Part shown: piece after piece, positions 53,198 through 53,214 of the stretch
Numbering within the stretch: position 1 is the first letter of the stretch
Layout of the letters: every line of letters starts with the position of its first letter
Assembly: GCF_050920415.1 (NCBI RefSeq)
Contig: NZ_CP169309.1
Length of the DNA stretch: 64,000 nt
Reading direction: 5' to 3' (one strand)
From: Escherichia coli
GTDB taxonomy: Bacteria; Pseudomonadota; Gammaproteobacteria; Enterobacterales; Enterobacteriaceae
Made by a program: the position numbers and the translations under genes
Notes under the pieces: model-generated
What the model was told of the DNA's origin: nothing
What the model saw: the letters and a program-made list of their open reading frames with translations, nothing else
Database searches by the model: none

Positions 53198-53214
53198 TGT
53201 GCACCAAGTGCACA
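53198..53214. promoter_or_regulatory. Perfect 17-bp palindrome TGTGCAC-CAA-GTGCACA in the mhpR-mhpA divergent region (candidate MhpR operator)
   Basis: 7-bp perfect arms; sits between divergent mhpA and mhpR, where an IclR-type activator site is expected. Confidence 0.55.

What the first reader, a model, noticed from the sequence alone, without database searches (positions are those of the whole stretch)
53198..53214. Perfect palindrome TGTGCAC-CAA-GTGCACA in the mhpR-mhpA divergent region
A 17-bp site with perfect 7-bp arms lies about 140 nt upstream of the mhpA start, between the divergent regulator and catabolic operon. IclR-family activators bind palindromes of this size, and I recall a similar 17-bp GTGCAC-containing motif being proposed as the MhpR site. 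Here the symmetry is perfect.
Basis: partly seen in the sequence, partly recalled or inferred. Interest (0 to 1): 0.25.

Follow-up and report, generated by a model that had tools for sequence, protein, structure and literature searches.

The report
Known MhpR activator binding site
The palindrome is this E. coli strain's copy of the already published DNA site where the regulator MhpR binds to switch on the genes for degrading 3-hydroxyphenylpropionate, so it is real, functional and ordinary.

Summary
Window 53198-53214 reads TGTGCACCAAGTGCACA. It lies in the 190-bp gap between mhpA (- strand, ATG at 53056) and mhpR (+ strand, ATG at 53247).

The aligned E. coli K-12 sequence, read on the mhpA strand, is GGTGCACCTGGTGCACA. 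That is letter for letter the MhpR motif credited to Torres et al. 2003. The window differs at two non-core positions: one spacer base, and the outermost base, which makes the 7-bp arms perfect.

The perfect symmetry is not special:
- Perfect arms are the majority E. coli allele (at least 2,323 + 88 records, against 1,340 with the K-12 form).
- The window holds 6 perfect 7+3+7 inverted repeats, against about 3.9 expected by chance.

The evidence for function is conservation. GTGCAC-N3-GTGCAC is exact beside mhpR in 68 of 80 species, from Escherichia to Pseudomonas and Xanthobacter. It sits at a fixed 17-nt gap from the -35 element of the catabolic promoter, and it follows mhp promoters even where the gene order differs.

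Most likely mechanism: effector-bound MhpR binds at about -58 and activates the mhpA promoter Pa, with CRP help. This is already known, so interest is low.

Side observations: a conserved flank on the mhpR side, a resemblance to the NtrC binding site, and an 18-bp repeat-expansion allele.

The parts
53198..53214 (.). MhpR operator: TGTGCAC-CAA-GTGCACA. It is orthologous to the K-12 17-mer GGTGCACCTGGTGCACA (mhpA-sense strand).
   Evidence: Sequence. Alignment to K-12. Published motif: PMC8222616 Table 1. Conservation in 78 of 80 species.
53199..53204 (.). Left core hexamer GTGCAC. It is self-complementary and essentially invariant across species.
   Evidence: each position is conserved in 75-78 of 78 sites.
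53208..53213 (.). Right core hexamer GTGCAC, 9 bp from the left one. The site is therefore both a direct and an inverted repeat.
   Evidence: each position is conserved in 75-78 of 78 sites.
53176..53181 (-). Inferred -35 element of the mhpA promoter Pa. It reads TTGTAG on the - strand and starts 17 nt from the 15-bp operator core.
   Evidence: Read. ACAA sits at a fixed offset of -21 from the palindrome in 64 of 78 loci. The second operator copies in Marinobacterium show the same 17-nt gap.
53154..53159 (-). Inferred -10 element of Pa. It reads TATACT on the - strand, with a 16-nt spacer to the -35. It predicts a transcription start near 53146-53148.
   Evidence: Read. A motif of this kind (AGTAT or a listed variant) lies at offset -45 to -47 in 75 of 78 loci. 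The start site is an inference, not a measurement.
53236..53251 (.). Candidate weak CRP site TGTCA-ATTAAT-ATGCA, centred at 53243.5 (37.5 bp beyond the operator centre). It overlaps the mhpR start codon.
   Evidence: Sequence. The position matches my recollection of Torres et al. 2003 (CRP at -95.5, MhpR at -58). It has 4 mismatches to TGTGA-N6-TCACA, so the 3-mismatch scan did not list it. Inference only.
53216..53225 (+). Conserved flank on the mhpR side: CGTTGTTTTA (consensus C-R-TTG-W-TTT-a). Its role is unknown.
   Evidence: TTG and TT are conserved in 68-75 of 78 sites, in register with the palindrome. The flank is absent at the second operator copies that face only catabolic genes.
53247..54080 (+). 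mhpR, the IclR-family activator (277 aa).
   Evidence: NF007341, 345 bits against a cutoff of 269. 98% identical to K-12 MhpR.
51392..53056 (-). mhpA, the first gene of the regulated catabolic operon.
   Evidence: NF004827, 1275 bits. RefSeq annotation.

Best explanation
The palindrome is the operator of MhpR, the IclR-family activator encoded next to it.

Proposed mechanism: an MhpR dimer (or a dimer within a tetramer) recognises the two GTGCAC hexamers, which lie 9 bp apart. Binding is favoured when MhpR carries 3-hydroxyphenylpropionate or a related effector. From this site, centred about 58 bp upstream of the Pa transcription start and 17 nt upstream of a weak -35 (TTGTAG), MhpR helps RNA polymerase start transcription of mhpABCDFE. 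It also allows cAMP-CRP to bind a weak site one step further upstream.

Shown here: sequence identity of the core with the published K-12 site; the same spacing to the promoter elements; a cognate regulator identical over residues 5-159, which I take to include the DNA-binding domain; and deep conservation of the site and its geometry.

Inferred or taken from the literature: physical binding, the effector dependence, the -58 and -95.5 positions, and the CRP synergy. The primary papers could not be read here.
For: - The K-12 ortholog equals the published MhpR motif GGTGCACCTGGTGCACA.
- The window differs only in one spacer base and the outermost base.
- MhpR is 271/277 identical to K-12, with residues 5-159 identical.
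- GTGCAC-N3-GTGCAC is exact in 68 of 80 species loci and has one mismatch in 10 more, across Enterobacterales, Pseudomonadales, Oceanospirillales and Xanthobacter. That is 73 exact hits against 0.027 expected.
- Geometry is fixed: the -35 TTGT element is at a constant offset in 64 of 78 loci, and a -10-like TATACT or CATACT in 75 of 78.
- The motif follows mhp promoters when the divergent partner is mhpB or mhpD instead of mhpA. A second copy stands before mhpB in three Marinobacterium loci, with the same 17-nt gap to a -35.
- PMC11237407 summarises that effectors stimulate MhpR binding to its operator in the mhpABCDFE promoter region.
Against: - No binding experiment exists for this allele. 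The spacer base (A for G) and the outermost base (A for C) differ from the footprinted K-12 site, although both variants fall within the cross-species consensus (spacer Y-A-R, outer T..A).
- The -58 and -95.5 coordinates and the CRP dependence rest on my memory of Torres et al. 2003. That paper, Manso et al. 2009 and Ferrandez et al. 1997 are not held in the library.
- Two Vibrio MhpR homologs lack the motif within 400 nt upstream.
Confidence: 0.95

Rival explanations
1. The inverted repeat acts as RNA: a hairpin followed by a T-rich run in the mhpR leader, working as an intrinsic terminator or attenuator that limits mhpR expression.
For: - The pattern scan calls it terminator-like on the + strand: a 7-bp stem, a 3-nt loop, then ACGTTGTTTT.
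- The T-rich flank TTG-W-TTT is conserved in register with the palindrome.
- The site lies only 32 nt before the mhpR ATG, so an mhpR transcript probably includes it.
Against: - The hairpin is not unusually stable: -9.0 kcal/mol, z = -0.7 against shuffles; for K-12, -7.4 kcal/mol, z = 0.
- The T run starts 4-5 nt after the stem and is interrupted.
- The hexamers are invariant rather than co-varying, as expected for protein contacts.
- The second copies in Marinobacterium keep the palindrome but not the T run.
- The site sits at the 5' end of a gene, not at the end of a transcription unit.
Confidence: 0.03
2. Besides activating Pa, the same bound MhpR represses or blocks the mhpR promoter Pr, because the site lies between any possible Pr start and the mhpR ATG (autoregulation).
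For: - The geometry fits: the operator ends 32 nt before the mhpR ATG in the window, and its centre lies 27-57 nt upstream of the mhpR match in most species.
- Autoregulation is common in the IclR family (general knowledge).
Against: - From memory of Torres et al. 2003 and the abstract of Manso et al. 2011, Pr was reported to be independent of MhpR and dependent on CRP. I could not re-read either paper.
- The Pr start site could not be placed from the sequence. No sigma-70 consensus hit was found in 53000-53300.
Confidence: 0.1
3. The site is also, or instead, a target of the nitrogen regulator NtrC, whose half-site TGGTGCA/TGCACCA it contains.
For: - A genomic SELEX screen lists an NtrC peak of 88% at K-12 map position 367,650, in the mhpR/mhpA spacer (PMC8743547).
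- The K-12 spacer holds TAAAACAACGTGGTGCA, with 3 mismatches to TGCACCAnnnTGGTGCA, overlapping the operator.
Against: - The window has no NtrC-box match at 3 or fewer mismatches in the spacer.
- The two TGCACCA-like half-sites are direct repeats at the wrong spacing for the NtrC box.
- The peak is in vitro only, the screen gives no base-level position, and the paper does not discuss it.
- Conservation tracks mhp genes, not nitrogen genes.
Confidence: 0.05
4. A chance palindrome made of two ApaLI-type GTGCAC hexamers, with no function.
For: Perfect 7+3+7 inverted repeats are no rarer than chance in this window: 6 observed against 3.9 +/- 2.0.
Against: - The same 12 core bases are kept beside mhpR in 68 of 80 species, down to 55% protein identity.
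- That is 73 hits against 0.027 expected.
Confidence: 0.005

Closest known systems
MhpR operator of the E. coli K-12 Pa (mhpABCDFE) promoter (Torres, Porras, Garcia and Diaz 2003, J Biol Chem 278:27575; motif GGTGCACCTGGTGCACA)
   Same: - Orthologous position, with both GTGCAC hexamers and the 3-bp spacing unchanged.
- The same distance to the -35 and -10 elements and to both start codons, with no indels.
- The same regulator, identical over residues 5-159.
   Different: Two of 17 bases differ. The central spacer base is A instead of G. The outermost base on the mhpR side is A instead of C, which makes the arms a perfect 7 bp. Both are common natural variants.
IclR-family operators of aromatic-catabolism regulators (PcaU, PobR, PcaR, HmgR), grouped with MhpR by Suvorova and Gelfand 2021 (PMC8222616)
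   Same: - A short palindrome of about 15-19 bp in a divergent regulator/catabolic-operon spacer.
- An activator bound upstream of the -35.
- Core resemblance: GTGCA-N5-TGCAC against GTNCG-N5-6-CGNAC.
   Different: - Each MhpR half-site is itself a palindrome (GTGCAC).
- No convincing third direct-repeat half-site of the PcaU/PobR/HmgR kind was found. The sequence at the 9-bp periodic position is R-TTG-W-T, which does not resemble GTGCAC.
NtrC box TGCACCAnnnTGGTGCA
   Same: It shares the heptamer TGCACCA/TGGTGCA. An in vitro NtrC SELEX peak maps to this spacer in K-12.
   Different: The half-sites are at the wrong spacing and orientation. The window has 4 or more mismatches to the box.

Membership tests
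MhpR operator (E. coli Pa promoter) | Sequence orthologous to the footprinted 17-mer GGTGCACCTGGTGCACA | tested here: met
   15 of 17 bases are identical and both hexamers are intact. The motif is as listed in PMC8222616 Table 1.
MhpR operator (E. coli Pa promoter) | Lies in the spacer between divergent mhpR and mhpA | tested here: met
   The genes were identified by NCBIfam equivalogs and RefSeq annotation. The site is 142 nt from the mhpA ATG and 32 nt from the mhpR ATG.
MhpR operator (E. coli Pa promoter) | Centred about 58 bp upstream of the Pa transcription start, just upstream of the -35 | tested here: inconclusive
   Spacing to the inferred -35 TTGTAG and -10 TATACT is identical to K-12, and the offset is conserved in 64-75 of 78 species. 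This puts the centre at about -58 to -60. The start site was not measured here, and the published figure is recalled, not re-read.
MhpR operator (E. coli Pa promoter) | Cognate MhpR with the same DNA-binding domain is encoded alongside | tested here: met
   271/277 identity to K-12 MhpR, with residues 5-159 identical. I take this stretch to include the DNA-binding domain; domain boundaries were not determined here.
MhpR operator (E. coli Pa promoter) | Conserved wherever MhpR orthologs control mhp genes | tested here: met
   Exact core in 68 of 80 species and one mismatch in 10 more. The motif follows mhpA, mhpB or mhpD promoters, and second copies stand before mhpB.
MhpR operator (E. coli Pa promoter) | Physically bound by MhpR, with binding enhanced by 3HPP and related effectors | not testable with these tools
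   Reported for K-12 (summarised in PMC11237407). No data exist for this allele.
Rho-independent terminator | A stable GC-rich stem followed immediately by a U run, at the end of a transcription unit | tested here: not met
   The pattern scan hits it. But folding energy is within the shuffle range (z = -0.7), the T run is offset by 4-5 nt and interrupted, and the site is at the 5' side of mhpR.
NtrC box | TGCACCAnnnTGGTGCA with few mismatches | tested here: not met
   No match at 3 or fewer mismatches in the window's spacer. K-12 has one match at 3 mismatches.

The most novel reading that the evidence does not exclude
The operator may be only half of a composite element. The flank on the mhpR side, C-R-TTG-W-TTT (window 53216-53225), is conserved in register with the palindrome across Enterobacterales and Pseudomonadales. 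It is missing from the second operator copies that face only catabolic genes. It could therefore be a so far undescribed control of mhpR itself: for example a leader hairpin plus U-run attenuator, or an extra contact for a second MhpR dimer that blocks Pr. Published work describes Pr as independent of MhpR.
Probability: 0.12. Interest if true: 0.35.

Novelty: already known. Interest (0 to 1): 0.08.

Why it matters
It matters little beyond correct annotation. The site can be labelled with confidence as the MhpR operator of the mhp catabolic promoter in this strain.

Two modest points could help people who use MhpR/Pa as a 3HPP or phenylpropionate biosensor, or who model this promoter:
- The K-12 operator used in all published experiments is the minority, imperfect allele. 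Most E. coli and many other species carry perfect 7-bp arms.
- The functional core, defined by 80 species, is GTGCAC-YAR-GTGCAC at a fixed 17-nt gap from the -35.

Tried and rejected
**Literature that could not be reached**
- Torres et al. 2003, Manso et al. 2009 (PMC2755845), Ferrandez et al. 1997 (PMC179006) and PMC515250 (tried from memory as the Tropel and van der Meer 2004 review): none is held. The footprint coordinates therefore rest on a secondary citation and on memory.
- The supplements of the Reg-seq preprint and of the NtrC gSELEX paper, searched for mhpR promoter or peak sequences, held nothing.

**Scans that gave nothing useful**
- A CRP consensus scan of the whole window at 3 mismatches was uninformative (192 hits against 218 expected). 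It missed the weak candidate site, which has 4 mismatches.
- The sigma-70 consensus scan found no promoter in 53000-53300. The Pa elements were instead read from the cross-species alignment.
- I tried to place the mhpR promoter Pr and its CRP site (recalled at -40.5). No assignment was convincing, so none is claimed.

**Ideas tested and dropped**
- The conserved flank as a -35 or an extended -10 for mhpR: the implied start would fall inside the coding region.
- The flank as a third GTGCAC-like half-site: no resemblance.

**Technical**

Full report
**1. The observation**

Window 53198-53214 reads TGTGCACCAAGTGCACA: two perfect 7-bp arms around CAA. It is the only match in the 64-kb window to TGTGCAC-N3-GTGCACA, even with two mismatches allowed.

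- The - strand ORF 51392-53056 is mhpA (NCBIfam NF004827, 1275 bits), followed by mhpB.
- The + strand ORF from the ATG at 53247 is the IclR-family regulator MhpR (NF007341, 345 bits against a cutoff of 269).
- RefSeq annotation of a strain identical over this stretch gives the same genes and starts.

The near edge of the palindrome is 142 nt from the mhpA ATG. Its far edge is 32 nt before the mhpR ATG.

Perfect symmetry is not in itself remarkable. The window holds 6 perfect 7+3+7 inverted repeats, against 3.9 +/- 2.0 in shuffled sequence.

**2. What it is**

I aligned the spacer with E. coli K-12 and three other strains.
- The K-12 counterpart is TGTGCACCAGGTGCACC, with no indel between it and either gene.
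- Read on the mhpA strand directly from NC_000913.3 (368453-368469), it is GGTGCACCTGGTGCACA.
- That string is exactly the binding motif listed for E. coli MhpR, citing Torres et al. 2003, in Table 1 of Suvorova and Gelfand 2021 (PMC8222616).

The window's site is therefore the ortholog of the published operator. It differs at two bases:
- the middle spacer base (A for G);
- the outermost base on the mhpR side (A for C). This second change is what makes the arms perfect.

The window's MhpR is 271/277 identical to K-12's, with residues 5-159 identical. I take this stretch to include the DNA-binding domain, so I expect the same DNA specificity.

**3. Is the perfect symmetry unusual?**

No. I searched 5,426 complete E. 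coli genomes with 47-nt queries and counted exact matches.

| Allele | Sequence | Records |
|---|---|---|
| K-12 type, imperfect arms | TGTGCACCAGGTGCACC | 1,340 |
| Perfect arms, G in spacer | TGTGCACCAGGTGCACA | 2,323 |
| Window allele, perfect arms | TGTGCACCAAGTGCACA | 88 |

These are lower bounds, because flank polymorphisms also break exactness. The reference strain carries the less symmetrical form. The window's spacer variant is a minority allele of no obvious consequence.

**4. Independent evidence of function**

A scan of one genome per species found 80 loci encoding MhpR relatives at 55-97% identity. They include Escherichia, Citrobacter, Kluyvera, Shimwellia, Edaphovirga, Pluralibacter, Pseudomonas, Azotobacter, Marinobacterium, Zobellella, Nitrincola, Oceanospirillum, Xanthobacter and Plasticicumulans.

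- *Presence.* Within 400 nt upstream of mhpR, GTGCAC-N3-GTGCAC is exact in 68 loci and has one mismatch in 10. It is absent only in two Vibrio loci. Over all 447 kb of these loci there are 73 exact hits, against 0.027 expected.
- *Base preferences.* The twelve hexamer positions are conserved in 75-78 of 78 sites. The outer pair prefers T (52 of 78) and A (58 of 78), and full 7-bp perfection occurs in 31 of 78. The spacer prefers Y-A-R (TAA 24, CAG 12, TAG 7, CAA 3).
- *Geometry.* In register with the palindrome, ACAA (TTGT on the catabolic strand) sits at a fixed offset in 64 of 78 loci. An AGTAT-like element (TATACT or CATACT on the catabolic strand) sits 24-26 nt further on in 75 of 78.
- *In the window.* These elements are TTGTAG (53181 to 53176) and TATACT (53159 to 53154), 16 nt apart. 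That is an activator-type promoter with a weak -35.
- *Independence from gene order.* The divergent partner is mhpA in most loci, but mhpB or mhpD in others. Three Marinobacterium loci carry a second copy just after mhpR, in front of mhpB, again 17 nt from a TTGAxx -35.

**5. How it most likely works**

The inferred -10 predicts a Pa start near 53146-53148. That places the palindrome centre (53206) at about -58 to -60.

This agrees with my recollection of Torres et al. 2003: MhpR at -58, and a CRP site at -95.5 whose occupancy depends on MhpR. At 37.5 bp beyond the operator centre the window has TGTCA-ATTAAT-ATGCA (53236-53251). It has one good and one poor CRP half-site and overlaps the mhpR start codon. 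That is what one would expect of a CRP site needing help.

PMC11237407 summarises that 3HPP, phenylpropionate and DHPP bind MhpR and stimulate its interaction with the operator in the mhpABCDFE promoter region.

- *Shown here:* orthology, geometry, conservation, regulator identity.
- *Taken from the literature or inferred:* binding, effector dependence, the exact start site, CRP synergy. The primary papers are not in the library.

**6. Rivals**

- *RNA terminator or attenuator.* The terminator scan flags the palindrome plus ACGTTGTTTT on the + strand. However:
  - the hairpin is no more stable than shuffled sequence (-9.0 kcal/mol, z = -0.7; K-12 z = 0);
  - the T run is offset and interrupted;
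  - the hexamers are invariant rather than co-varying;
  - the second copies lack the T run.
- *Autoregulation of mhpR.* This is geometrically possible, because the site lies just before the mhpR ATG. As I recall, Pr was reported to be independent of MhpR. I could not place Pr from the sequence.
- *NtrC.* A gSELEX screen lists an 88% NtrC peak at K-12 map position 367,650, in this spacer (PMC8743547). K-12 has an NtrC-box-like TAAAACAACGTGGTGCA overlapping the operator (3 mismatches). The window has no such match at 3 or fewer mismatches. This looks like in vitro cross-recognition of the shared TGGTGCA heptamer and is at most a side issue.
- *Chance.* Excluded by the conservation.

**7. Comparison with what is known, and verdict**

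This is the MhpR operator, an already described element.
- Membership features met: sequence orthology, location, cognate regulator, conservation.
- Consistent but not measured: promoter position.
- Not testable here: physical binding.

The emphasis on perfect symmetry is misplaced. Novelty: already known. Interest: low.

**8. What remains unexplained**

The flank on the mhpR side, C-R-TTG-W-TTT (53216-53225), is conserved in register with the palindrome in enteric bacteria and pseudomonads. It is absent at the operators that face only catabolic genes. It is not a plausible promoter element for mhpR and does not resemble a third half-site. It may concern mhpR expression. This is the only part of the locus where something undescribed might hide.

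Noticed in passing
window 53216-53225 (and the same offset in L005-L084): The flank on the mhpR side, C-R-TTG-W-TTT-a, is conserved in register with the palindrome (TTG and TT in 68-75 of 78 species). It is absent at the second operator copies in Marinobacterium that face only mhpB. Its role is unknown. It is not a plausible -35 or -10 for mhpR and not a GTGCAC-like third half-site.
   Followed up: partly
L002 (E. coli Z1323HEC0011, NZ_CP148385.1), aligned to window 53198-53214: This strain has an 18-bp insertion made of two extra GTGCACCAG units. That gives four GTGCAC hexamers at 9-bp period. It looks like slipped-strand expansion of the operator, which is a direct as well as an inverted repeat. 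It is the only one of about 4,900 records to match as a single full-length piece, so a sequencing or assembly artefact is not excluded.
   Followed up: partly
K-12 spacer, L086 63-79 (aligned to window about 53209-53225): A published NtrC genomic-SELEX peak (88%) maps to the mhpR/mhpA spacer of K-12 (PMC8743547). K-12 has the NtrC-box-like TAAAACAACGTGGTGCA overlapping the MhpR operator. The C that makes K-12's palindrome imperfect also creates a perfect NtrC half-site, TGGTGCA. The window allele lacks it.
   Followed up: partly
window 54183-55944: Two genes lie between mhpR and lacI: an MBL-fold hydrolase, and a GlxA/FtrA-like AraC-type regulator that one record annotates as OvrA, 'OI-19-encoded virulence regulator'. 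As I recall, lacI follows mhpR directly in K-12. The complete insert is found in 435 of 5,426 E. coli genomes.
   Followed up: partly
window 53236-53251: The candidate weak CRP site TGTCA-ATTAAT-ATGCA overlaps the mhpR start codon (ATG at 53247). If it is the Pa CRP site at -95.5, as I recall, then bound CRP sits on the first codons of mhpR.
   Followed up: no
L025 and L034 (Vibrio cincinnatiensis, V. furnissii): These MhpR homologs (69-74% identity) have no GTGCAC-N3-GTGCAC within 400 nt upstream and no mhpA, mhpB or mhpD next to them. Either the operator lies elsewhere or the specificity has changed.
   Followed up: no
window 53133-54080: An in-frame upstream ATG at 53133 gives a 315-aa ORF that runs through the whole spacer, palindrome included. 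The 277-aa start at 53247 is supported by RefSeq and by conservation of the N-terminus down to residue 1 in other genera.
   Followed up: partly
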